Part shown: piece after piece, positions 211-9,563 of the stretch
Layout: every line of letters starts with the position of its first letter
How positions within the stretch are numbered: the stretch's first letter is position 1
Origin: a virus
Taxonomy: Duplodnaviria; Heunggongvirae; Uroviricota; Caudoviricetes
Reading direction: 5' to 3' (one strand)
Length of the DNA: 9,563 nt
IMG/VR virus record: IMGVR_UViG_2703718802_000013
Coordinates: 1-9,563 of that record
Position numbers and translations under genes: made by a program
Notes under the pieces: model-generated
The model's input: the letters and a program-made list of their open reading frames with translations, nothing else
Told to the model about the DNA's origin: nothing
Databases searched by the model: none

Positions 211-287
211 GGGGAACATATGACACATAAAACAAAGGCGACCTGGGGCGGTCGCCAATGGGAAAACACTAAACATAAGCCCGAACA

Positions 288-503
288 TCATAGCGATTTG
301 CTGGCTGGTGGGCAATTATCTTGCTTGTTGGGGCCGTATTGTGCTGCCATTTTCATCCGTTCAGAACGTGAATATTTTTTTAGAAACTCATCAAGGACAA
401 AAGCGCATGGTGCGAATCTTTCTGATTCATGCTCTGGCGCCATATTTTCGTGCTCTCTGTCCGTTTTTTGCGATGGTGTATTGGTTGATTCTTTGTTGGT
501 CAT
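288..503 (-). CDS. small hypothetical protein (71 aa), partner gene of RHH cassette 1; paralog of 954-1181
   Basis: Track ORF starting MTN. Its C-terminal region (FVLDEFLKKYSRSER) resembles that of the 954-1181 product (FALEDFVDKYPRRLK). It sits 57 nt downstream, on the minus strand, of the RHH gene 561-734, and the intergenic element is conserved with the one before 954-1181. The SD is weak. Confidence 0.4.
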   Translation of the reverse strand: MTNKESTNTPSQKTDREHENMAPEHESERFAPCAFVLDEFLKKYSRSERMKMAAQYGPNKQDNCPPASKSL

Positions 504-560
504 TGTGTGTACCTGTAAAGCAATGCGCCGTAGTACCTCACGCCACGGCGCTGATGTTTT

Positions 561-734
561 TTATCCTTTGGGTTCAATACCGCGTTGCTGTAATTCTTTT
601 CGGAGTACTCGCTTGATCCAGGTGGCTAAAGAAGTGTCACCGTCTGCTTTCGCTGCCTCTTCAAGTTGTGCTCTGAATTCTTCTGGTAGCCGCATTTGGT
701 ATGGAGGCGATCGCTTTTCCAATGGTGTTGACAT
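561..734 (-). CDS. ribbon-helix-helix (Arc/MetJ-like) DNA-binding protein, 57 aa
   Basis: Not in the ORF track because it is under 60 aa. My minus-strand translation is MSTPLEKRSPPYQMRLPEEFRAQLEEAAKADGDTSLATWIKRVLRKELQQRGIEPKG. The beta-strand then two-helix pattern (YQMRLPEEF...LATWIKRVLRKEL) resembles Arc-type repressors. The start codon overlaps a palindromic operator. Confidence 0.5.
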   Translation of the reverse strand: MSTPLEKRSPPYQMRLPEEFRAQLEEAAKADGDTSLATWIKRVLRKELQQRGIEPKG

Positions 735-776
735 GGTAATTACCCTTAATTACTATAGTTACATGGTAATTACCAT
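733..776. promoter_or_regulatory. two copies of a palindromic operator-like site (ATGGTAATTACC at 733-744; perfect 14-bp palindrome ATGGTAATTACCAT at 763-776)
   Basis: Read directly from the sequence. GGTAATTACC is self-complementary. The two copies are 30 bp apart and overlap the start codon and presumptive promoter of the minus-strand RHH gene 561-734. Confidence 0.45.
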
Positions 777-792
777 TGTACTTACCGTTATA

Positions 793-834
793 CAAAAAAC
801 AACGCCCCGCAGTGGTGGCTCACATACGGGGCGT
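793..834 (-). terminator. hairpin (ACGCCCCG / CGGGGCGT, 8-bp stem) followed by a T-run on the minus strand
   Basis: Stem arms at 802-809 and 827-834 with a 17-nt loop. The plus-strand A-run 794-800 reads as a T-run on the minus strand. It lies downstream of minus-strand gene 954-1181. It could instead be an RNA structural element of the duplicated module. Confidence 0.4.
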
Positions 835-865
835 CTAACCAAACCATTAATTGAGGTAACGATTA

Positions 866-920
866 TGGCTATAAAAGAGCATAGCTTACTCTTTATACAC
901 ACACAAACGCCCCGGAAACG
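866..920 (+). pseudogene. 5' remnant of an Icd-like gene (first ~18 codons only)
   Basis: ATG at 866 with a GAGG RBS. The translation MAIKEHSLLFIHTQT parallels MVAVNHIPHLVHTQT at the start of the Icd-like gene 1604-1801. Homology is lost after about 55 nt and no FVWRF or TEREAR motif follows. Confidence 0.3.
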
Positions 921-953
921 GAATAATCCGTTTCATAGTTCGGTTTTGTGCAC

Positions 954-1181
954 TCATCCTGGCGGTCGGTTTTTGCCGGATTTAAGCCGCCGTGGGTATT
1001 TATCGACAAAATCTTCAAGGGCAAATTTTTCTGGTGGCATTAAGCGCGGCGCTGGTGGTGGTATTTTTGTTCTGGTTAGTTCTTCCTCAACTCTGGCGCA
1101 GGCTTCTGACTGCCTTTGCCGGATGATTTCATCATCTTGCGTTTGCGTGTCTTGTATTGGTGATAGTGTGTTGTTGGTCAT
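954..1181 (-). CDS. small hypothetical protein (75 aa), partner gene of RHH cassette 2; paralog of 288-503
   Basis: Track ORF starting MTN. It lies directly downstream, on the minus strand, of RHH-like gene 1239-1418, separated by a conserved ~50 bp element that contains a hairpin. Confidence 0.4.
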   Translation of the reverse strand: MTNNTLSPIQDTQTQDDEIIRQRQSEACARVEEELTRTKIPPPAPRLMPPEKFALEDFVDKYPRRLKSGKNRPPG

Positions 1182-1238
1182 GATACTGCCCTGTAAAGTA
1201 ATGCGCCATAGTACCTCACGCCACGGCGCTGATAGTGA

Positions 1239-1418
1239 TTATTCTGATTCTTTGGCCTTGCGACGCTGGCGGCGTTTGATTTCGCCGCGCATGGCAGTAA
1301 CGATAAATTGTGCGTCTGTTTCGTTTTCTTCTTTTACCAAATTCATTTCGCTTAAAACGTCTAGAGGTACTCTAGCAGTTTTTTGTTGTGACTTGTTGTT
1401 GGTTGTACCTGTTGGCAT
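1239..1418 (-). CDS. small DNA-binding protein, probably ribbon-helix-helix (59 aa)
   Basis: Shares the track ORF 1239-1586 frame, but I start it at the internal ATG at 1418, which is preceded by a strong SD (minus-strand AGGAGAACAGAG then ATG). The product MPTGTTNNKSQQKTARVPLDVLSEMNLVKEENETDAQFIVTAMRGEIKRRQRRKAKESE aligns loosely with the 561-734 RHH protein (RLPEEF...LATWIKRVLRKEL versus RVPLDV...AQFIVTAMRGEIKR). Confidence 0.45.
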   Translation of the reverse strand: MPTGTTNNKSQQKTARVPLDVLSEMNLVKEENETDAQFIVTAMRGEIKRRQRRKAKESE

Positions 1419-1484
1419 CTCTGTTCTCCTTACTGTTAGGTGGTGTTCAGTATACGGAGAAAAAAAAATAAAAAAAGACTTGAA

Positions 1485-1529
1485 GTGCAAGTCACCTAAA
1501 AGTAACCTAGATTTCAAGGTGACTTGCAC
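1485..1529. promoter_or_regulatory. perfect 13-bp inverted repeat GTGCAAGTCACCT - N19 - AGGTGACTTGCAC (operator-like) in the divergent intergenic region
   Basis: Read directly. It lies between the minus-strand RHH-like gene (start 1418) and the plus-strand Icd-like gene (start 1604). A TATACT -10-like hexamer for the minus-strand gene is at 1451-1456. Confidence 0.45.
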
Positions 1530-1530
1530 C

Positions 1531-1572
1531 AAAAAAACAACGCCCCACAGTGCTGGAACACATGCAGGGCGT
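1531..1572 (-). terminator. hairpin (ACGCCC / GGGCGT) with a minus-strand T-run; paralog of the 793-834 element
   Basis: Stem arms at 1540-1545 and 1567-1572. The plus-strand A-run 1531-1539 is a T-run on the minus strand. About 75 percent identical by eye to 793-834 and its flank. Function uncertain (terminator or RNA structure). Confidence 0.35.
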
Positions 1573-1603
1573 CTAACCACAAACACTATAGAGAGGTAAA
1601 TTT

Positions 1604-1801: not shown

Positions 1802-1988
1802 AAACCGCTTGCAAAAAATTATAACGGGGCTGTATGCTTCCCCCGTCGCCCACATGGCGACCGGGTTTAGCAGCCTGAATACTACAGCGGACAGCCGCTT
1901 ACATTCCGATATGCGGTTTTTTTGTGTCCGTAAGCCTACCCATACCCGCATTATGGCGGGGCGTAACGGGGGAGCCTTTGCGCTCGCT

Positions 1989-2081
1989 GGTTCCTGTAGT
2001 GCCAGTCTGCTAACCCTGTTACGTCTCGCCACCCCGTTTAGCAGCGTAGTAGCGAGACTCCTTAATTTCACTACAGGAGCC
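1989..2081 (+). promoter_or_regulatory. candidate antisense pairing pair: 1989-2003 (GGTTCCTGTAGTGCC) is complementary to the RBS region of the second Icd-like gene at 2068-2081 (TCACTACAGGAGCC)
   Basis: The reverse complement of 1989-2003 is GGCACTACAGGAACC, against ACTACAGGAGCC at the RBS: 12 contiguous pairs if one G-U wobble is allowed, covering the AGGAG SD. This resembles the seqB/seqC logic of P4 CI RNA and P1 c4 RNA. RNA boundaries are unknown. Confidence 0.3.
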
Positions 2082-2706: not shown

Positions 2707-3006
2707 ATGAAACTTAAATATTCTGGCTTAACTGCCAGTGGCAACACTCACCCTAAATTTACGCGCGGTGATATTTACCGCGACCAGTACGGCGGCACGG
2801 TAATGATTAAGGGCGTGGCGGGACGGTGCGTAACTTACCGCCGTGAAGGTTACGAATATGATTGCGTGATGCCTGTTTATCAGTTCCGGCGTGATTTTTC
2901 TCTGGTACAGACCGCGCCGCATAACGTGCCCACCAGCAGGGAGAAAGCACGCGCCAATATTCAGGAAATAAAAAAGATGCTTAACGTATTCAGGGGTAAA
3001 AAATGA
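2707..3006 (+). CDS. hypothetical protein (99 aa)
   Basis: Track ORF with RBS GGAGAA about 9 nt upstream. Its stop overlaps the start of the primase gene (3003), suggesting translational coupling. Confidence 0.45.
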   Translation: MKLKYSGLTASGNTHPKFTRGDIYRDQYGGTVMIKGVAGRCVTYRREGYEYDCVMPVYQFRRDFSLVQTAPHNVPTSREKARANIQEIKKMLNVFRGKK

Positions 3007-5147
3007 AACTGGCACCGAACGTAAAACAGCAGTCACGCGGCATAAAACACAAAGAAACAGAAGTCATTATTTTTGCGGGTAGTGATGCCTGGTCACACGC
3101 AAAACAATGGCAGGAACATGACGCGCGTATGGCCGGAGATAATGAGCCTCCTGTGTGGCTTGGGGAGCAGCAGTTATCCGAACTGGATAAGCTGCAAATT
3201 GTGCCGGAAGGCAGAAAATCAGTACGCATATTCAGGGCCGGACATCTTGAGCCAGTAATGATCAAGGCGATTGGTCAGAAACTGGCGGCGGCAGGCGTAC
3301 AGGATGCAAATTTTTACCCTGAGGGAATGCACGTTCAGAAGGTGGAGAACTGGCGCGAATATCTGGCCCGTGAGCGGCAGAATCTTTCTGATGGTCTGGT
3401 TATTGAGCTTCCGGTAAAGAAAAAAGATACCGGAAGTCATAGCGATGACGAATTAAAGCCACGCGTTGAAAGTCGCGCCGATGGTGTTTTCTGGGTAACG
3501 CCCAAAGTGGATAAGCAGTCAGGCGAAATTATCCGGCCTGAGACGTGGTTATGTTCTCCGCTTGAACTACTGGGAACGGGGACGATCGGTAAAGAGCATT
3601 ACCGCGTGATGCGCTGGAAAAAAACCGCAAACCATGAAGTCATCACAATGGCGATCCCGTGTGGTGGTATCGGCGACCGTGACGGCTGGCGGTTACTTAA
3701 AGATCACGGGCTGAACGTGACAACCAACGGCAAATACAGGGCAATCCTGGCGGACTGGATGCAGTTAAGCGGAAGCCATGAGGAATGGCAGTTAAGCACA
3801 ACAACGGGCTGGCATTTTGGCGCGTACATCATGCCGGACGGTTCGATCATTGGTGATTCTGAAAAACCGATCCTGTTTACCGGAAAAAGCGCCGCGATTA
3901 ACGGTTATTCCGTGGCGGGTACGGCGGAGGGCTGGCGCGAGAGTGTGGCGCGGCTGGCTGGCGGTAATGCCTCAATGATGCTGGGTGTGGCAACGTCACT
4001 GGCAGCGCCTTTAATTGGCCTTGTGGGTGCTGACGGCTTCGGGGTGCATCTTTTCGAACAGTCATCGGCAGGTAAGACCACCACGCAGAACATCGCATCA
4101 AGTTTATGGGGAGAGCCGGACGCGCAGCGGCTGACCTGGTACGGCACGGCGTTAGGTATTGCCAATGAGGCCGAGGCCCATAATGACGGGCTTTTACCAC
4201 TGGATGAGATAGGCCAGGCCGGAAATGCGCGGGAAGTGTCAACGTCTGCTTATACGCTGTTTAACGGTTCAGGGAAATTGCAGGGGGCGAAGGATGGCGG
4301 CAACAGGGAGATCAAACACTGGCGAACGGTGGCAATCAGCACCGGAGAAATGGACGTTGAGACATTCCTCAAAAGTGAGGGGATAAAAGTTAAGGCGGGG
4401 CAGCTTGTCCGACTGCTTAACGTTCCGATGGAAAAAGCCACGAAATTTCACGAATACAGCAACGGTAAGGAACATGCTGACGCGTTAAAGGATGCCTGGA
4501 CAGCAAATCACGGGGCGGCGGGTCGTGAGTGGGTTAAATGGCTGGCAGGCCACCAGCAGGAGGCAAAGGACACGGTAAGGGAATGCCGCGAACGGTGGCG
4601 CAACCTGATACCGGAGAGTTACGGCGAGCAGGTCCACCGCGTGGGTGAACGTTTCGCCATACTGGAGGCCGCGCTTGTGCTTTCCGGTCATGTAACTGGC
4701 TGGGTCGTGCAGGAATGCCGCGACGCGATACAGCATAACTTTAATGCCTGGGTGAAAGAGTTCGGTACGGGCAACAGGGAACACAGGCAGATTATTGAAC
4801 AGGCTGAGGCGTTTCTTGCGGCCTATGGCCTGAGCAGGTTCGCCCCTGTCAATTATGACCCTGCCAGCCTGCCGATTTCAGAACTGTACGGCTACAGGGA
4901 AAGCGACGGGCGTTATGACGAGCCTGTTTTGTTTTACGTGCTGCCGGAGCCGTTTAGCTCACATGTGGCGAAGGGATTTAACAAGGATGCCGTAGCAAAG
5001 ACCCTTCATGAAGCCGGAATGCTGAGAAAACCAGCCAGCGGGCGGGGATGGCAAATCAGGACACCACGACTAAAACACCTGAAAGGGGCGCGGCTAAGAG
5101 TGTATGGCCTTTTGCTGACGCAGGACCACGATGCTGAAAATGATTAA
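3003..5147 (+). CDS. satellite-type primase/replication initiator (P4 alpha-like or PICI Pri-Rep-like, with a P-loop NTPase motif)
   Basis: 714 aa track ORF with an AGGGG RBS. It contains a deviant Walker A-like motif (SSAGKTT, encoded around 4068-4090). Its size and its position just upstream of an iteron array match replication proteins of P4-like and PICI elements. The domain assignment (DUF927-like) is from memory, not a search. Confidence 0.65.
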   Translation: MKLAPNVKQQSRGIKHKETEVIIFAGSDAWSHAKQWQEHDARMAGDNEPPVWLGEQQLSELDKLQIVPEGRKSVRIFRAGHLEPVMIKAIGQKLAAAGVQDANFYPEGMHVQKVENWREYLARERQNLSDGLVIELPVKKKDTGSHSDDELKPRVESRADGVFWVTPKVDKQSGEIIRPETWLCSPLELLGTGTIGKEHYRVMRWKKTANHEVITMAIPCGGIGDRDGWRLLKDHGLNVTTNGKYRAILADWMQLSGSHEEWQLSTTTGWHFGAYIMPDGSIIGDSEKPILFTGKSAAINGYSVAGTAEGWRESVARLAGGNASMMLGVATSLAAPLIGLVGADGFGVHLFEQSSAGKTTTQNIASSLWGEPDAQRLTWYGTALGIANEAEAHNDGLLPLDEIGQAGNAREVSTSAYTLFNGSGKLQGAKDGGNREIKHWRTVAISTGEMDVETFLKSEGIKVKAGQLVRLLNVPMEKATKFHEYSNGKEHADALKDAWTANHGAAGREWVKWLAGHQQEAKDTVRECRERWRNLIPESYGEQVHRVGERFAILEAALVLSGHVTGWVVQECRDAIQHNFNAWVKEFGTGNREHRQIIEQAEAFLAAYGLSRFAPVNYDPASLPISELYGYRESDGRYDEPVLFYVLPEPFSSHVAKGFNKDAVAKTLHEAGMLRKPASGRGWQIRTPRLKHLKGARLRVYGLLLTQDHDAEND

Positions 5148-5172: not shown

Positions 5173-5474
5173 GTTGTCCCAGTCGTCCCAGTAAGCAACA
5201 AGCAATCGTAACACATTGAATTACATAAATTTCACTTACAAAAAGTGGGACAACAGCGGGACAACATTCAGGCATTTTGGGACAACATAGCGGCATTTTG
5301 GGACGACACGACACGTATTTTTTACCGTGCTGGAGGGTGGGACAACACAAAAACCCTCATGTCGTCCCAAAATCGCCTTATGTCGTCCCACTTTGTGGAG
5401 TATGTTTTTAATAAAATCAACAGGTTAACATTAAGTGGGACAACCGGGACAACTGGGACGACGTGTTTTGTATA
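5173..5474. repeat. iteron array (about 12 copies of GGGAC(A/G)AC in both orientations) with an adjacent AT-rich stretch; presumptive origin of replication
   Basis: Read directly. Plus-orientation copies are at 5247, 5258, 5279, 5300, 5339, 5447, 5456 and about 5465. Minus-orientation copies (GTTGTCCC or GTCGTCCC) are at 5173, 5182, 5361 and 5382. AT-rich TGTATATATATAC lies at 5477-5490. It is immediately downstream of the replication gene. Confidence 0.6.
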
Positions 5475-5502
5475 TATATACGAAAAAATCGAGATCTGAA
5501 CT

Positions 5503-5751
5503 ATGAAGTTAAACCGCAAACAACCACACTACCGCGCCATTGACCTTACAGAGCACTGGCTGAGAGTGGCGATAAAAATCATCGACCGCAACACGGTGGA
5601 AGGATACGCGAAAGCACATCCCGAACTGATAAGCGCATTCATGACCACAGCGGCGGCAAACTTTGCCACGCTGACAGAACGGGAGATTGCCGAAGCGGAA
5701 CAGGTAACAACCATCAACGTAAAAACCGGAGAGTCAGGCGATGATACATGA
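5503..5751 (+). CDS. hypothetical protein (82 aa)
   Basis: Track ORF following the iteron region. No recognisable motif. Confidence 0.45.
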   Translation: MKLNRKQPHYRAIDLTEHWLRVAIKIIDRNTVEGYAKAHPELISAFMTTAAANFATLTEREIAEAEQVTTINVKTGESGDDT

Positions 5752-5989
5752 CCGCATAGCGGAGGAACTCGAGGCGAAAGGATTTTACCGGAGGGCGGCG
5801 GCGCGATGGGGTGAAGTCATGCAGCTGGTGGAGACAGACAAGGAACGGCATCAGGTTACGATGCGACGGCTGGAATGTTCCAGGAAGGCACAGAGGCCAC
5901 CGGAGCCGCCAACGGAGAACTATGCAGACCTGAGAAATGCAGTAAATCGCACTTACGCAGACATGGGGCTGAGCAAATTAGCAGAGTAG
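5741..5989 (+). CDS. small regulator, possibly PerC-family transcriptional activator (82 aa)
   Basis: ATG at 5741 preceded by GGAGAG with a 7-nt spacer. The N-terminus MIHDRIAEELEAKGFYRRAAARW resembles my recollection of PerC-like proteins common in P4-like islands. The family assignment is tentative. Confidence 0.45.
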   Translation: MIHDRIAEELEAKGFYRRAAARWGEVMQLVETDKERHQVTMRRLECSRKAQRPPEPPTENYADLRNAVNRTYADMGLSKLAE

Positions 5990-6012
5990 GAATACCAGAA
6001 CCACACCACACA

Positions 6013-6034
6013 GCCGGAGCAATCCGGCTTTTTT
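6013..6034 (+). terminator. rho-independent terminator (GCCGGA-gcaa-TCCGGC followed by TTTTTT)
   Basis: Read directly: stem arms at 6013-6018 and 6023-6028, T-run 6029-6034, downstream of the 5741-5989 stop. Confidence 0.6.
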
Positions 6035-6040
6035 GCGCCC

Positions 6041-6082
6041 AAAAAAAGCCCGATAAGGTCAGAGGTGGCTTATCGGGCTTTT
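6041..6082. terminator. second, bidirectional-looking terminator (A7 - GCCCGATAAG ... CTTATCGGGC - T4)
   Basis: Read directly: 10-bp stem arms at 6048-6057 and 6069-6078, flanked by an A-run and a T-run. Confidence 0.6.
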
Positions 6083-6158
6083 GCATATGAGGCTTTTTGG
6101 TGCACTGACACACATGATCGGGATAATCATTTCATAATTTGCAATACAACTCAATATC

Positions 6159-6190
6159 ATTGCACAAAATGCAATCATGATTATAATCAT
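6159..6190 (+). promoter_or_regulatory. near-consensus sigma-70 promoter (TTGCAC - N16 - TATAAT) embedded in two dyad elements
   Basis: -35 TTGCAC at 6160-6165 and -10 TATAAT at 6182-6187. The dyad ATTGCA-caaaa-TGCAAT (6159-6175) overlaps the -35, and the perfect 14-bp palindrome ATGATTATAATCAT (6177-6190) contains the -10. It lies 54 bp upstream of the capsid operon start at 6244. Confidence 0.5.
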
Positions 6191-6243
6191 AACTGGATGA
6201 ACATACAGTTATGATTTTTTAAGTCAAAGAGGAATTTCTTACT

Positions 6244-6450
6244 ATGGCTGAAGAGAAAAAAGGCGGTGTTTCGGTGTACATAAGCCCCGACATCGTGAAG
6301 GCGCTCAAGGAACGCCACCAGCAGAACGTAAAAGCAGGCATTGCGGCAGGACTTGATCCGCTGGCGATGGTTGAGCCGTCAACAGGCTGGCAGGTACGCG
6401 CCTATTTACGCGCGGCGCTGGGTATGAATCAGGTTCACGGGGGTGAATAA
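6244..6450 (+). CDS. hypothetical small protein (68 aa), first gene of the capsid operon
   Basis: Track ORF with RBS AAGAGGA. Its stop overlaps the start of the capsid gene (TAATG at 6448-6452). No recognisable homolog. Confidence 0.5.
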   Translation: MAEEKKGGVSVYISPDIVKALKERHQQNVKAGIAAGLDPLAMVEPSTGWQVRAYLRAALGMNQVHGGE

Positions 6451-7505
6451 TGACAGGCAAAGCAACAGCACTTACCACTAATCAGCTTTTCACGTACCTG
6501 AATCGCGGGGATATTGCGGAATTTAAATTCAGTCCGCTGTTTACCACGCTGTTTTTCCCGAACGTGGCGACATTCAGCACCCAAAACATCATGCTGGATA
6601 CCCTGGACATTGAAGAAGTCACCATGTCGGCGTTTTGTTCGCCTATGGTTGGCAGCCAGGTCCAGCGCGATAAAGGGTACGAAACCAGCACGATTAAACC
6701 AGGCTACATGAAGCCAAAGCACGAAATCGATCCAACAAAAACCATCATGCGCATGGCTGGAGAAGATCCGGCACAGCTTAACGACCCTACCTACCGACGT
6801 ATGCGCCTTATTACTGGCAACATGCGCCGCCAGATAAACGCCATTAAAGCGCGCGTGGAATGGCTGGCGGTGAATGTGATAACGACCGGAAAAAACATCA
6901 TTGAGGGCGAAGGCATAGAACGCTATGAAATCGACTGGAAAATACCGGAAAACTGCATCATAGAGCAGGCCAAGGGTAAAAAATGGTCCGAGCATGATAA
7001 AGATATTTACGATCCAATCTATGACATCGAACTATACGCAGATCAGGCAGGTTGCCCCGCCAACGTCATGATTATGGGCGCTGAGGTATGGCGCACGTTA
7101 CGCAGCTTTAAAAAATTCCGCGAACTGTACGATCTTTCCCGTGGTTCAGAATCCGCCGCAGAACTGGCCTGTAAAAACCTGGGTGAAGTAGTGAGCTTTA
7201 AAGGCTATCTGGGCGATATTGCCCTTATCGTCTATTCCGGCAAATACACTGACAGCGACGGTACCGAAAAATATTTCCTTGAGCCTGATTTGCTGGTCCT
7301 GGGTAACACCAACAACAAAGGGCTGGTGGCCTATGGTGCGATTATGGATCAGGAAGCTGTAAGAACAGGCGCAACGCAAAACATGTACTACCCGAAAAAC
7401 TGGATTGAGGACGGCGATCCGGCGATTGAGTACGTGCAGACGCACAGCGCACCGCAGCCGGTACCGGCAGACATTCGCAAATTTGTTACCGTCAAAATTG
7501 GTTAA
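6450..7505 (+). CDS. major capsid protein, lambda gpE family
   Basis: 351 aa. Several blocks match lambda gpE as I recall it: FKFSPLF..LFF (lambda FKFDPLF..LFF), KPGYMKPKHEIDP (TPGYVKPKHEVNP), EDPAQLNDPTYRR (EDPQNLADPAYRR), SFKGYLGDIALIVYSG (SYKGMYGDVAIVVYSG), YPKNWIEDGDPA...SAP (YPKNWVTTGDPA...SAP). Confidence 0.8.
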   Translation: MTGKATALTTNQLFTYLNRGDIAEFKFSPLFTTLFFPNVATFSTQNIMLDTLDIEEVTMSAFCSPMVGSQVQRDKGYETSTIKPGYMKPKHEIDPTKTIMRMAGEDPAQLNDPTYRRMRLITGNMRRQINAIKARVEWLAVNVITTGKNIIEGEGIERYEIDWKIPENCIIEQAKGKKWSEHDKDIYDPIYDIELYADQAGCPANVMIMGAEVWRTLRSFKKFRELYDLSRGSESAAELACKNLGEVVSFKGYLGDIALIVYSGKYTDSDGTEKYFLEPDLLVLGNTNNKGLVAYGAIMDQEAVRTGATQNMYYPKNWIEDGDPAIEYVQTHSAPQPVPADIRKFVTVKIG

Positions 7506-7516
7506 CTGGGGATTCT

Positions 7517-7852
7517 ATGAACACTCCATACATTGAGTTATTTGCAGGCAGTCAGCAGGTATCAACGACGCTGGTACATTTTGCCGCTGATGCTGGCTTT
7601 ATTCAGGAATTTACCCCGCTGATGCTGTCAGACAATGGCGAGTTTAAGCCGTGGGATGGTCAGGAATCTGGCAAGGCTGTTTATCTGACTTCGTACCCCG
7701 TGGACACGTCGACGCAGAAATCAGCACAGTGTTACAAGACGGGGATATTTAATATCGCCGCCGTAAACTGGCCTGAGAGCGCCGACACTGACGCGAAAAA
7801 ATGCGCCGCCTTTGCGGGTTCTGGCGTATCCGTTCAGCCGCTGGCGCGATAA
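7517..7852 (+). CDS. head decoration protein, lambda gpD family
   Basis: 111 aa. TPLMLSDNGEFKPWDG matches lambda gpD TPLMLDTSSRKLVAWDG, and KTGIFNIAAVNWPESADTDAKKCAAFAGSGVSVQ matches [34 protein letters not shown], both from memory. Confidence 0.75.
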   Translation: MNTPYIELFAGSQQVSTTLVHFAADAGFIQEFTPLMLSDNGEFKPWDGQESGKAVYLTSYPVDTSTQKSAQCYKTGIFNIAAVNWPESADTDAKKCAAFAGSGVSVQPLAR

Positions 7853-7864
7853 GCAGGGGAAACG

Positions 7865-8278
7865 ATGGCAACGAATGAAAGCATCATGGCGCTACCGCTG
7901 GCGAGTAAATTTAAAGCAGAAGCGCGGGCAATGGCTGACAGAGGTTTATCAACCTACGAGGCCGTATATCAACTCAACAAACTGGAAGAGCAGGACAAGC
8001 CGCGCGCTGATGCGATTATGGCGCTTCATGAACATAACGACTATCAGCCGCTGTTACGTGCAATGGCAAACGTGCCATGTATTAGCGTCGATAATGCTCG
8101 TGAAATCCTGAACATGACCATAGAGCAGGAGCGCCCAAAGGTTGCGCCGGAGCTTACCGCAGCCTTTGAAAACTTTATGGACATGCACAGCCCGAAAGCC
8201 GTATCACCCGGCATGGCATACGACGGCAGAAACCAGGGCGATGAAGGCGACGTCGATCGCATACTGAAAACCATCTGA
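7865..8278 (+). CDS. hypothetical protein (137 aa), last gene of the capsid operon
   Basis: Track ORF with RBS GGGGAA, followed directly by a terminator. I see no similarity to lambda FI, FII or W. Function unknown. Confidence 0.5.
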   Translation: MATNESIMALPLASKFKAEARAMADRGLSTYEAVYQLNKLEEQDKPRADAIMALHEHNDYQPLLRAMANVPCISVDNAREILNMTIEQERPKVAPELTAAFENFMDMHSPKAVSPGMAYDGRNQGDEGDVDRILKTI

Positions 8279-8284
8279 CATAAG

Positions 8285-8307
8285 GCCGGAGAAATCCGGC
8301 TTTTTTT
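8285..8307 (+). terminator. rho-independent terminator (GCCGGA-gaaa-TCCGGC followed by TTTTTTT)
   Basis: Read directly. The hairpin is nearly identical to the terminator at 6013-6034. Confidence 0.6.
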
Positions 8308-8470
8308 ACGGGTCCTTTCCGGCATATGGACCCGTTACGGGGCGGCGACCTCGCGGTTTTTCGCTATTTATGAGCTTTTTCAGGGTGGTGGTGGTGGTTT
8401 TGTTGTTTGCTCTATCTTTATGAATAAAAAGGGAAATATAAAACCAATACACCAACCTGAAACCTTAACT
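8308..8470 (+). other. lambda-type cohesive-end site cos1: cosQ-like flank, cosN (GGGCGGCGACCT at 8340-8351), and a divergent cosB-like region
   Basis: TTACGGGTCCTTTCCGG...GTTACG-GGGCGGCGACCT-CGCGGTTTTTCGCTATTTATGA closely matches the lambda right-end/left-end junction as I recall it (TTTACGGGTCCTTTCCGG...GGTTACG-GGGCGGCGACCT-CGCGGGTTTTCGCTATTTATGAAAATTTTCCGG). Beyond about 8375 it diverges from lambda cosB, with a (GGT)n tract at 8385-8398 and AT-rich sequence. Confidence 0.7.
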
Positions 8471-8484
8471 AAGTGGGGATATTG

Positions 8485-9027
8485 ATGAAATCGCACCTGA
8501 TGAACAAAAAAACTATGGCGCAAAGCTGCCGTGTAAGTGCGACAGCGTTCGACAAGTGGGGAGTGACTCCCGTTGAACGTAAAGGCCGCGAGGCTTTTTA
8601 CGATGTTGCCAGCGTGATAGACAATCGGGTAAGCAATGCAATTGACCAGGTTACAAACGACAAAGGCGATATCGACGATGATGAACTTTTACGCGTAAGA
8701 ATCCGATTACTGACGGCCCAGGCGGAGGCGCAGGAGCTTAAAAACGAGCGCGAACGCGGCGACGTGATTGATACAGGTTTTTGCCTGTACGCGCTTTCAA
8801 AGCTGGCGAGCCAGATTTCATCAATCATGGACAGCCTCCCGCTGACTATGCAAAGGAGCTTCCCACAGATTACCCCCGCCATGCTGGATAGGCTTAAAAG
8901 GGAAGTGGTTAAAGCCTGTAATGCCAGTGCCAGAGTTGCCGACAACCTCCCACAGATACTGGCTGATTACTTGAAAGAAACAACCGGAAACGTACCGGAA
9001 AAGTTGCTACAGAAGAAAGGCGAGTAA
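8485..9027 (+). CDS. terminase small subunit, lambda Nu1 family
   Basis: Same frame as track ORF 8473-9027. LTAQAEAQELKNERERGDVIDTGFCLYALSKLASQISSIMDSLPLTMQRSFP matches lambda Nu1 LTRAQADAQELKNARDSAEVVETAFCTFVLSRIAGEIASILDGLPLSVQRRFP, and the N-terminal NKK..wHTH region and C-terminal tail also align. I chose the ATG at 8485 (GGGGA SD); the ATG at 8500 is also possible. Confidence 0.75.
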   Translation: MKSHLMNKKTMAQSCRVSATAFDKWGVTPVERKGREAFYDVASVIDNRVSNAIDQVTNDKGDIDDDELLRVRIRLLTAQAEAQELKNERERGDVIDTGFCLYALSKLASQISSIMDSLPLTMQRSFPQITPAMLDRLKREVVKACNASARVADNLPQILADYLKETTGNVPEKLLQKKGE

Positions 9028-9054
9028 CAGACGCGCAATTATTGAACAAAAATG

Positions 9055-9116
9055 AGAAAGGATCTGATAATGGCATTTTCTGGCTAAAATGCCATTATCA
9101 GATCCTTTCTTTTTTT
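9055..9116. terminator. perfect 25-bp inverted repeat (AGAAAGGATCTGATAATGGCATTTT / AAAATGCCATTATCAGATCCTTTCT) with a 6-nt loop, followed by T6
   Basis: Read directly. It acts as a strong intrinsic terminator after the Nu1-like gene. It also occupies the position, relative to the inverted cos2, where lambda has its own cosB inverted repeat. Confidence 0.6.
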
Positions 9117-9119
9117 AAT

Positions 9120-9250
9120 ATTTTCATTGTTAAACAGTCTGTTACAGAGAAGAAGAACGGATCTGACTTTTGCCGGAAAATTTTCATAAACAGATAAAAA
9201 CCGCGAGGTCGCCGCCCCGTAACGGGCCATAATTCCAGGAAGGACCCGAC
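9120..9250 (-). other. second lambda-type cos site (cos2) in inverted orientation: cosN reverse complement at 9205-9216, lambda-like cosB on the minus strand
   Basis: The minus strand reads GTTACG-GGGCGGCGACCT-CGCGGTTTTTATCTGTTTATGAAAATTTTCCGGCAAAAG...TCCGTTCTTCTTC. This matches recalled lambda cosB (CTATTTATGAAAATTTTCCGG...TCCGTTCTTCTTCG) better than cos1 does. The cosQ-like flank lies at 9217-9250 on the plus strand. Confidence 0.65.
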
Positions 9251-9281
9251 GACACCAGACTATCAGAACGATGGGGGCACA

Positions 9282-9563
9282 ATGACAGAAGCCGAACTAC
9301 TGCGATTAATCCGTCGCGTTGCCGGAATCAGCCAGCAGGCTGACGAACAGGCCACGCAGCCGGACAGCGTGACCGCCGAAAATTATGCGCGTGTGGTTGC
9401 TGAGGTGATGCGCCGTGATGGTATTGAGCTTAACGGCGTGGATATGCGCAACATACGAACCAGAGTCCTTGAGTTGCTGGCATACCGTCGCCGCGTGGAG
9501 ATGTATCGGGAGAAGGAGAAAATCACGTACCACTGGAAGAAGCCGGAGCGGTTACGGCGGTAA
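9282..9563 (+). CDS. hypothetical protein (93 aa)
   Basis: Track ORF with a G-rich RBS (GGGGG) before the ATG. It lies on the cosQ side of cos2. No recognisable homolog. Confidence 0.4.
   Translation: MTEAELLRLIRRVAGISQQADEQATQPDSVTAENYARVVAEVMRRDGIELNGVDMRNIRTRVLELLAYRRRVEMYREKEKITYHWKKPERLRR

What the first reader, a model, noticed from the sequence alone, without database searches (positions are those of the whole stretch)
6244..7852. Capsid gene order is E-like then D-like, reversed relative to lambda, with a coupled upstream 68 aa ORF
In lambda the order is D then E, preceded by C and Nu3. Here an unknown 68 aa ORF is translationally coupled (TAATG) to the E-like gene, and the D-like gene follows. 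The rearranged minimal set and the novel small protein in the scaffold position suggest a satellite-specific assembly factor, possibly a size-determination or scaffold protein.
Basis: partly seen in the sequence, partly recalled or inferred. Interest (0 to 1): 0.4.

Follow-up and report, generated by a model that had tools for sequence, protein, structure and literature searches.

The report
Known PICI satellite capsid-gene operon
This is the capsid-gene operon (small 68-aa gene, lambda-E-like capsid, lambda-D-like decoration, truncated scaffold) of the published E. coli phage satellite family EcCICFT073; the unusual gene order is real and found only in the satellites, but it is already known and its function is still untested on an intact copy.

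Summary
ORFs lie at 6244-6450 (68 aa), 6450-7505 (Pfam Phage_cap_E) and 7517-7852 (Pfam HDPD), with a TAATG stop/start overlap. The order E then D occurs in all 80 related viral-contig loci, in Salmonella and Pluralibacter relatives, and in EcCICFT073. All 33 phage records examined and four helper prophages have D then E. The 68-aa protein has no match in 50,697 phage records.

It is not new. The proteins are 98.5, 95 and 94% identical to c1498, c1499 and c1500 of EcCICFT073, and the operon is in 589 of 5,426 complete E. coli genomes.

It is homologous to the C-terminal scaffold part of the helper's gpC/Nu3 protein and is the better scaffold candidate. The 68-aa protein is an orphan under purifying selection, with only weak ribbon-helix-helix-like signals. 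Its alleles recombine independently of E.

Published deletions of c1499 and c1500 gave no phenotype, and c1498-c1501 can be replaced. However, every marked island tested carried its marker inside this operon. Function therefore remains open. My best guess is a satellite-own shell module.

The parts
6012..6034 (+). Terminator hairpin after the PerC gene; upstream boundary of the operon
   Evidence: Terminator scan. The same hairpin sequence recurs at 8285-8306 (D5).
6159..6175 (.). Conserved palindrome ATTGCAcaaaaTGCAAT; candidate operator in the -35 region
   Evidence: Unique in the window, with 0.08 expected by chance at one mismatch. Conserved across all three allele types of the 68-aa gene. 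The binding protein is unknown.
6182..6187 (+). TATAAT -10 box, inside the palindrome ATGATTATAATCAT
   Evidence: Read from the sequence. Conserved as TATAAT or TAAAAT in 53 distinct upstream sequences. Its promoter role is inferred; the consensus scan did not call it because the -35 hexamer is poor.
6193..6208 (.). LexA-box-like CTG-N10-CAG site, CTGGATGAACATACAG, just downstream of the -10 box
   Evidence: Unique in the window, 0 expected by chance (the pattern was chosen after seeing the site). Most relatives have the perfect palindrome CTGGATGAACATCCAG; type-C relatives lack it. The resemblance to the recA and ruvAB SOS boxes is from memory. LexA binding was not tested.
6244..6450 (+). 68-aa ORF (= EcCICFT073 c1498), first gene of the operon; orphan family, possibly ribbon-helix-helix-like
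   Evidence: 98.5% identical to the CFT073 homologue. phrog_3255 at E=8e-37. dN/dS 0.22-0.29. Only 14 clusters among 1.84 billion representatives. AF2 model: strand then two helices, pLDDT 74.5. Weak RHH_1 and BrnA hits.
6450..7505 (+). Lambda-gpE-like major capsid protein, 351 aa (= c1499)
   Evidence: PF03864 at E=7e-50. 95% identical to c1499 and 44% to the CFT073 helper's E. Best match among 50,697 phage records is 46.5%.
7517..7852 (+). Lambda-gpD-like head decoration protein, 111 aa (= c1500)
   Evidence: PF02924 at E=3e-17. 94% identical to c1500 and 44% to the helper's D.
7865..8278 (+). 137-aa acidic protein (= c1501 by gene numbering), homologous to the C-terminal scaffold (Nu3-type) region of gpC-like protease/scaffold proteins; no protease domain
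   Evidence: phrog_53 positions 494-567 of 583 at E=1.5e-9. 36% identity over 83 aa to residues 416-493 of the 501-aa helper S49 protein. The family HMM hits the C-terminal half of gpC-like proteins in four phages. pI 4.9. Low-confidence all-helical model.
8285..8306 (+). Terminator hairpin; downstream boundary of the four-gene operon
   Evidence: (D5): GCCGGAGAAATCCGGCTTTTTT, 95% identical to the hairpin at 6013-6034, which the terminator scan lists.
8309..8384 (+). cos arm with the lambda-type cosN GGGCGGCGACCT at 8340-8351; context only, not part of the operon
   Evidence: I1. Corresponds to one of the two cos sites of EcCICFT073 (PMC6092414).

Best explanation
SHOWN. The finding covers the first three genes of a discrete four-gene operon: promoter region 6159-6208, then orf68, E-like, D-like and a 137-aa scaffold-like gene, then a terminator at 8285-8306. 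This is the c1498-c1501 block of EcCICFT073-family Gram-negative phage-inducible chromosomal islands (PICIs). The module belongs to the satellite lineage. It is old (no more than 46.5% identity to any phage capsid, but 62-100% among PICIs of three genera). It is intact in at least 95% of copies and under purifying selection.

INFERRED mechanism. The operon is switched on during SOS or helper induction. It supplies the satellite's own shell proteins: a capsid subunit, its cementing decoration protein, and a truncated scaffold that keeps the C-terminal tail of the helper scaffold. These would assemble on, or mix with, helper portal, protease and capsid components to build or remodel heads for satellite DNA. 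This is analogous to Ccm of SaPIbov5 (capsid homologue), CpmB of SaPI1 (competing scaffold) and Psu of P4 (satellite decoration). The module is dispensable when full-size helper heads are available.

In this picture the scaffold or size-determining candidate is the 137-aa protein, not the 68-aa protein. The 68-aa protein has one conserved beta-strand followed by two helices and must pair that strand with something. Most likely it forms a ribbon-helix-helix-type dimer that binds DNA, for example the invariant palindrome in front of its own gene, and so regulates the operon. Less likely it adds its strand to a capsid component as an adaptor.
For: Identity: (94-98.5% identity to c1498-c1500, 90% to c1501); PMC6092414 names c1499 as a capsid protein and c1500 as a head decoration protein.

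Operon boundaries and tight spacing: (overlap of 1 nt, then spacers of 11 nt and 12 nt).

Conservation: 80 of 80 loci; Salmonella and Pluralibacter; 589 of 5,426 E. coli genomes; modal lengths kept in 79 of 81, 77 of 80, 75 of 77 and 68 of 71 copies; dN/dS 0.07-0.33.

Satellite-specific clade.

Scaffold homology of the 137-aa protein: with acidic pI.

Ribbon-helix-helix hints for the 68-aa protein: strand plus two helices in the AF2 model. The only Pfam families touched at E<=10 are two ribbon-helix-helix families, BrnA at 0.017 and RHH_1 at 0.2. The RHH_1 hit and the hhalign alignment both place the conserved strand and first helix in the ribbon-helix-helix register. The invariant strand VxVxI parallels the invariant upstream palindrome.

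Independence from E: the 68-aa alleles A and B (69% identical) both sit next to E proteins that are 92-98% identical to the window's; dS is 0.65 for the 68-aa gene against 0.125 for E in the same locus.
Against: No experiment assigns a function. Deleting c1499 or c1500 changed neither transfer nor lambda interference, packaged DNA was phage-sized, and no PICI monomer band was seen (PMC6092414). Expressed singly, only c1503 blocked lambda (PMC6739421). c1498-c1501 can be replaced by cas9 or melA and the island still transfers (PMC10530653, PMC10460865).

The island has no portal, protease or large terminase, so any shell would depend on helper parts that are only 36-44% identical.

Confidence: 0.4

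Rival explanations
1. One reading: the 68-aa protein is a satellite-specific scaffold, size-determination factor or chaperone that acts directly on the E-like capsid protein, for example by adding its single beta-strand to a capsid sheet.
For: It is always directly upstream of, and overlapping, the E-like gene. The family exists only in this context. A lone conserved strand needs a partner. Coupled translation would give high yield together with E.
Against: It has no similarity to any scaffold or head protein. Its net charge is about neutral, unlike the acidic scaffold-type proteins in these modules. Its alleles recombine freely against nearly identical E, D and 137-aa genes, which is not expected for a tight partner. 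A true scaffold homologue already sits in the operon. Stop/start overlaps are routine in phage operons. Published marked islands gave phage-sized DNA only (PMC6092414).
Confidence: 0.13
2. The operon is an interference or decoy module. Satellite capsid, decoration and scaffold look-alikes poison the head assembly of helper or non-helper lambdoid phages, or shield assembly from host defences that sense capsid proteins. It would not build heads for the satellite.
For: The proteins are 36-46% identical to phage head proteins, close enough to co-assemble yet divergent. PICIs are known to interfere with helpers (PMC6092414, PMC6739421). The module is dispensable for transfer (PMC6092414, PMC10530653).
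Against: Deleting c1499 or c1500 did not relieve lambda interference (PMC6092414). Of the genes expressed singly, only c1503 reduced lambda and phi80 plaques (PMC6739421). There is no hit to any PADLOC defence model.
Confidence: 0.15
3. The genes are captured helper late genes with no function of their own. At most they are a back-up copy for helper-embedded islands that interrupt the helper's E gene.
For: PMC10111431 proposes late-gene capture and a back-up role. Some relatives are embedded in helper head genes. No phenotype has been published (PMC6092414).
Against: The clade is old and separate from all phage homologues (no more than 46.5% identity), yet it is conserved across three genera. 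At least 95% of copies are intact. dN/dS is 0.07-0.33. The gene order differs from every helper. Most copies are in chromosomal sites, such as caiT in the closest relative.
Confidence: 0.08

Closest known systems
EcCICFT073 genes c1498-c1501 (Fillol-Salom et al. 2018, PMC6092414)
   Same: Same four genes in the same order and spacing, at 98.5, 95, 94 and 90% protein identity. Same backbone: AlpA, DUF927 primase, PerC, two cos sites and the 93-aa gene.
   Different: The window carries a full-length Nu1-like small terminase (184 aa) where EcCICFT073 has RppA (144 aa). The left part, with the C4 RNA region, also differs.
Lambda-type head module Nu3/C, D, E (lambda, phage 21, N15, Gifsy-1, CFT073 phage 4)
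   Same: Homologous capsid, decoration and scaffold-tail proteins.
   Different: The order is E, D, scaffold instead of scaffold, D, E. There is no portal, protease domain, W, FI or large terminase. An extra 68-aa gene is present that is absent from all phages. Identity is only 36-46%.
Ccm of SaPIbov5 (PMC5052747, PMC8569155)
   Same: A capsid-protein homologue encoded by a cos-type satellite next to its packaging functions.
   Different: Ccm demonstrably makes small isometric heads. No size change has been seen for EcCICFT073 (PMC6092414). The protein family and host differ.
CpmB of SaPI1 (competing internal scaffold; Dearborn et al. 2017, as summarised in bioRxiv 10.1101/2022.09.08.507074)
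   Same: A short satellite protein. That CpmB's C-terminus resembles the helper scaffold's capsid-binding end is from my own knowledge. The 137-aa protein keeps the helper scaffold's C-terminal tail.
   Different: No sequence relation was tested. The function of the 137-aa protein has not been shown.
Capsid-forming PICIs (EcCIEDL933)
   Same: An E. coli PICI backbone that encodes its own capsid protein.
   Different: cf-PICIs carry portal, protease, connectors, HNH and both terminase subunits. None of these is in the window or its relatives.

Membership tests
EcCICFT073-type Gram-negative PICI | AlpA regulator, primase/replicase with a downstream iteron origin, genes in one direction | tested here: met
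   AlpA PF05930 at 1-210 and DUF927 primase at 3003-5147. Iterons at 5258-5390. All named genes are on the + strand.
EcCICFT073-type Gram-negative PICI | Integrase at one end; island of 10-20 kb in a specific attachment site | tested here: inconclusive
   The window starts at alpA, so no integrase is visible. In the closest relative (98.7% identity over window 5500-9563, 99.9% over the operon), an integrase lies upstream and the island of about 11 kb splits caiT.
EcCICFT073-type Gram-negative PICI | Lambda-type cos site(s) plus Rpp or a small-terminase homologue | tested here: met
   GGGCGGCGACCT at 8340-8351 (+) and 9206-9217 (-). Nu1-like protein PF07471 at E=2e-22.
EcCICFT073-type Gram-negative PICI | Induction, replication and transfer by a helper phage | not testable with these tools
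   Shown only for EcCICFT073 itself (PMC6092414).
Lambda gpE major capsid family (PF03864) | Full-length profile match above the curated cut-off | tested here: met
   170 bits against a cut-off of 22.9, covering residues 26-349.
Lambda gpD decoration family (PF02924) | Profile match above the curated cut-off | tested here: met
   63.3 bits against a cut-off of 29.1.
gpC/Nu3 protease-scaffold family | C-terminal scaffold region homologous to Nu3-type proteins | tested here: met
   phrog_53 at E=1.5e-9. BLASTP E=4e-9 to the helper's C-terminus. HMM hits in four phages, including lambda at E=3e-3.
gpC/Nu3 protease-scaffold family | S49 protease domain | tested here: not met
   The 137-aa protein has no Pfam hit. 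It aligns only to residues 365-493 of the 501-aa helper protein.
Ribbon-helix-helix DNA-binding proteins (for the 68-aa protein) | Significant profile match to a ribbon-helix-helix family | tested here: not met
   Best hits are BrnA at E=0.017 and RHH_1 at E=0.2 (12.1 bits against a cut-off of 20.5), each in one member only.
Ribbon-helix-helix DNA-binding proteins (for the 68-aa protein) | Strand-helix-helix topology; strand-swapped dimer that binds an operator | tested here: inconclusive
   The model has a conserved strand at 9-13 and helices at 15-34 and 47-58, pLDDT 74.5. No structural match was found. Dimer formation and DNA binding are not testable here.
Satellite capsid-size redirection factors (CpmB, Sid, Ccm, TcaP) | Production of satellite-sized small capsids | not testable with these tools
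   The literature reports only phage-sized DNA for EcCICFT073, but from islands marked in c1501 or c1499 (PMC6092414, Table 1 and text).
Capsid-forming PICI | Own portal, protease, head-tail connectors and large terminase | tested here: not met
   None among the window ORFs. Among the 80 relatives, only helper genes flanking embedded islands match these.

The most novel reading that the evidence does not exclude
With the operon intact, these classical PICIs may build satellite-sized heads from their own E-like and D-like proteins on helper portals. A T=3 shell would hold about 28% of a T=7 head, roughly 13-14 kb against an island of about 11 kb (my arithmetic). The 137-aa truncated scaffold would set the size and the 68-aa protein would be a required cofactor. 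This would be an evolutionary intermediate between head-stealing PICIs and capsid-forming PICIs. It would have been missed because every marked EcCICFT073 derivative carried its marker in c1501 or replaced c1499.
Probability: 0.15. Interest if true: 0.7.

Novelty: already known. Interest (0 to 1): 0.27.

Why it matters
About one in nine complete E. coli genomes carries this operon, yet nobody knows what it does. If it builds or reshapes heads, 'classical' Gram-negative PICIs would not be pure head thieves, and the published view that EcCICFT073 lacks capsid morphogenesis genes would need revising. What this analysis adds is practical. It identifies c1501 as a scaffold-tail homologue. It points out that the published tests disrupted the operon. 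It flags a probable SOS box and operator, and it shows that the 68-aa gene evolves as an independent cassette. As a discovery, however, the arrangement is already in the literature and in routine annotation.

Tried and rejected
1. Homology of the 68-aa protein to solved structures by sequence: only designed helical repeats at E>=0.05. Rejected.
3. HMMs of the 68-aa family against all six-frame ORFs of eight phage or prophage head regions, including W, FI, FII and Nu3: no hit.
4. Weak 68-aa versus D-like similarity (34% over 29 aa): a short strand motif, judged to be chance.
5. Exhaustive profile search for fusions or distant relatives: 14 clusters. The only long protein hit (1,264 aa) matched a 13-residue repeat and was judged spurious.
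6. Scan of species-representative genomes for the 68-aa family: found nothing. The scan is pattern-based and uses one genome per species, so it is uninformative.
7. NCBIfam and PADLOC: no hits for any operon protein.
8. Structure of the 137-aa protein: pLDDT 50, too poor for a fold search.
10. A simple-deletion origin from a lambda head region was considered and rejected. The order E, D, scaffold, cos, Nu1-like cannot be obtained from cos, Nu1, ..., Nu3, D, E by deletion alone.

Full report
WHAT IS THERE

The window is an EcCICFT073-family Gram-negative phage-inducible chromosomal island (PICI). It holds these genes:
- AlpA, 1-210
- DUF927 primase, 3003-5147, followed by origin iterons at 5258-5390
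- an 82-aa gene
- PerC, 5741-5989
- the region of the finding
- a Nu1-like small terminase, 8473-9027
- a 93-aa gene

The region of the finding holds a 68-aa ORF (6244-6450), a lambda-E-like capsid gene (6450-7505; PF03864, E=7e-50) and a lambda-D-like decoration gene (7517-7852; PF02924, E=3e-17). The stop of the 68-aa ORF and the ATG of the capsid gene share one base, as TAATG.

THE OPERON HAS FOUR GENES

Twelve bases after the D-like gene lies a 137-aa ORF (7865-8278).
- It matches the C-terminal end of the 'head maturation protease' family phrog_53, positions 494-567 of 583, at E=1.5e-9.
- It is 36% identical over 83 residues to residues 416-493 of the 501-aa S49/gpC-like protein of the CFT073 helper prophage. 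That stretch is the Nu3-type scaffold region, not the protease domain.
- An HMM of the 137-aa family hits the C-terminal half of the gpC-like protein in four different phages, including lambda.
- The protein is acidic, pI 4.9, like the helper scaffold region.
- Its model is all-helical but low confidence, pLDDT 50.

The same terminator hairpin stands before the promoter region (6012-6034) and after this gene (8285-8306). The unit is therefore promoter, orf68, E', D', scaffold-like gene, terminator. The internal junctions are 1 nt of overlap, then 11 nt and 12 nt.

IT IS SATELLITE-SPECIFIC, BUT KNOWN

The four products are 98.5, 95, 94 and 90% identical to the corresponding genes of E. coli CFT073. 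The literature calls c1499 a putative capsid protein and c1500 a head decoration protein (PMC6092414). By numbering, the flanking genes are c1498 and c1501.

Evidence that the arrangement is conserved among satellites:
- The operon is present at 80% coverage or more in 589 of 5,426 complete E. coli genomes.
- All 80 IMG/VR loci that encode the 68-aa protein have the same order inside the same PICI backbone.
- Salmonella and Pluralibacter islands keep orf68, E' and D' with the same overlapping junction, at 60-66%, 67-69% and 54-59% identity.

Evidence that phages differ:
- The 68-aa protein has no tblastn hit in 50,697 phage records.
- The best phage match to the capsid protein is 46.5%.
- D lies directly upstream of E in all 27 phage records shared by the D and E hit lists.
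- The same holds in lambda, Alteromonas P24, Vibrio K243, Xylella Bacata, Hafnia Enc34 and Sinorhizobium phi2LM21.
- It also holds in the CFT073 helper and in three helpers that flank embedded islands.

SELECTION

Modal lengths are kept in 79 of 81, 77 of 80, 75 of 77 and 68 of 71 copies. Pairwise dN/dS is 0.07-0.33 for all four genes, and 0.22-0.29 for the 68-aa gene. All four are real, constrained genes.

THE 68-AA PROTEIN

It is an orphan. There are only 31 clusters in the 5.8-billion-protein set and 14 in an exhaustive profile search of 1.84 billion representatives. None is fused to another domain.

There are weak ribbon-helix-helix signals:
- The only Pfam families touched at E<=10 by any member are two ribbon-helix-helix families, BrnA at 0.017 and RHH_1 at 0.2.
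- The RHH_1 hit and the hhalign alignment both place the strand and first helix in that register, but hhalign gives only 1.7% probability.

This is a lead, not a result.

The conserved C-terminal HGGE is encoded by CACGGGGGTGAA, which also supplies the ribosome-binding site of the capsid gene.

The gene exists as three allele types: A (as in the window), B (69% identical to A) and C (65%). Types A and B each sit next to E proteins that are 92-98% identical to the window's. In one B-type locus, dS is 0.65 for orf68 but 0.125 for E. Such cassette-like exchange argues against a tightly co-evolving partnership with the capsid protein.

REGULATION (INFERRED)

Upstream of orf68 and conserved across relatives are:
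- a palindrome, ATTGCAnAAAATGCAAT (6159-6175)
- a TATAAT box (6182-6187)
- in types A and B, a CTG-N10-CAG site (6193-6208). In most relatives this is CTGGATGAACATCCAG.

From memory, that last site resembles the recA and ruvAB SOS boxes. Both motifs are unique in the window. LexA control would parallel operon I of the staphylococcal islands. The three PICI papers searched for LexA mention it only in their reference lists.

WHAT THE EXPERIMENTS SAY

- Deleting c1499 or c1500 changed neither transfer nor interference with lambda. Packaged DNA was phage-sized, and c1499 has 'no phenotype' (PMC6092414).
- Only c1503 (RppA) blocked lambda when genes were expressed singly (PMC6739421).
- c1498-c1501 can be replaced by cas9 or melA (PMC10530653, PMC10460865).

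Table 1 of PMC6092414 shows that the marked islands were c1501::tetA or c1499::cat. An island moved into a lambda lysogen must have been one of these (my inference). The operon has therefore never been examined intact. The statement that EcCICFT073 lacks capsid morphogenesis genes rests on disrupted copies.

VERDICT

It is also the known EcCICFT073 module, so novelty is low.

The scaffold or size-determination role proposed for the 68-aa protein has no support. The 137-aa scaffold-tail homologue is a better candidate.

My preferred reading (about 0.4) is a satellite-own shell module, with the 68-aa protein as a small, probably dimeric, DNA-binding or adaptor protein. The rivals are:
- a direct capsid cofactor (0.13)
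- an interference or decoy module (0.15)
- functionless captured genes (0.08)

Noticed in passing
window 7865-8278: The 137-aa gene directly after the D-like gene is a truncated homologue of the helper's scaffold (Nu3-type) C-terminus. Some NCBI records name it 'phage head-tail connector protein'. It is the c1501 gene that carried the tetA marker in the published EcCICFT073 experiments.
   Followed up: yes
window 6159-6208: Conserved palindrome ATTGCAcaaaaTGCAAT, a TATAAT box, and a LexA-box-like CTGGATGAACATACAG in front of the capsid operon. The LexA-like site is absent from the most divergent (type C) relatives.
   Followed up: partly
window 6244-6450 and loci L003-L082: The 68-aa gene occurs as three allele types (100, 69 and 65% identity to the window). 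Types A and B both sit next to E, D and 137-aa genes at least 88% identical to the window's, and both occur with either packaging-gene type, like an exchangeable cassette.
   Followed up: partly
window 8309-8384 and 9173-9248: Two 76-nt cos arms in inverted orientation, each with the lambda cohesive-end sequence GGGCGGCGACCT, flank the small-terminase-like gene. They match the two cos sites described for EcCICFT073.
   Followed up: partly
window 8473-9027: This island carries a full-length Nu1-like small terminase (184 aa, 33% identical to the helper's) where EcCICFT073 has the 144-aa RppA. Among the 80 relatives both types are common, and two carry a helper-like small-terminase homologue instead.
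   Followed up: partly
window 1949-2036: C4 antisense RNA (Rfam RF01695, 72 bits), as in the P1 and P4 immunity regions.
   Followed up: no
window 220-1600: A 459-aa ORF with an implausible translation spans two copies of a repeat unit of about 700 nt (493-567/1171-1245 and 794-841/1532-1579). It is probably non-coding or holds small genes on the other strand, such as a 57-aa ORF at 561-734 on the minus strand.
   Followed up: no
window 5258-5390: Direct and inverted iterons (GGGACAACAT..GCATTTT) downstream of the primase gene, the expected PICI replication origin.
   Followed up: no
window 9049-9116: A 31-nt near-perfect hairpin, called as a bidirectional terminator, lies right after the small-terminase-like gene.
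   Followed up: no
L093 1-564; three IMG/VR loci: Some relatives are embedded in helper head genes: one next to a split terminase A gene, others followed by helper portal, protease, D and E. These match the published helper-embedded PICIs.
   Followed up: no
L092 8638-8871; L093 8640-8846: In Pluralibacter and Salmonella islands the fourth gene is a shorter acidic protein (77 or 68 aa). The Salmonella 68-aa protein resembles one scaffold repeat of the 137-aa family only faintly (E=0.003 in a tiny search); the Pluralibacter 77-aa protein shows no detectable similarity (E=0.33).
   Followed up: partly
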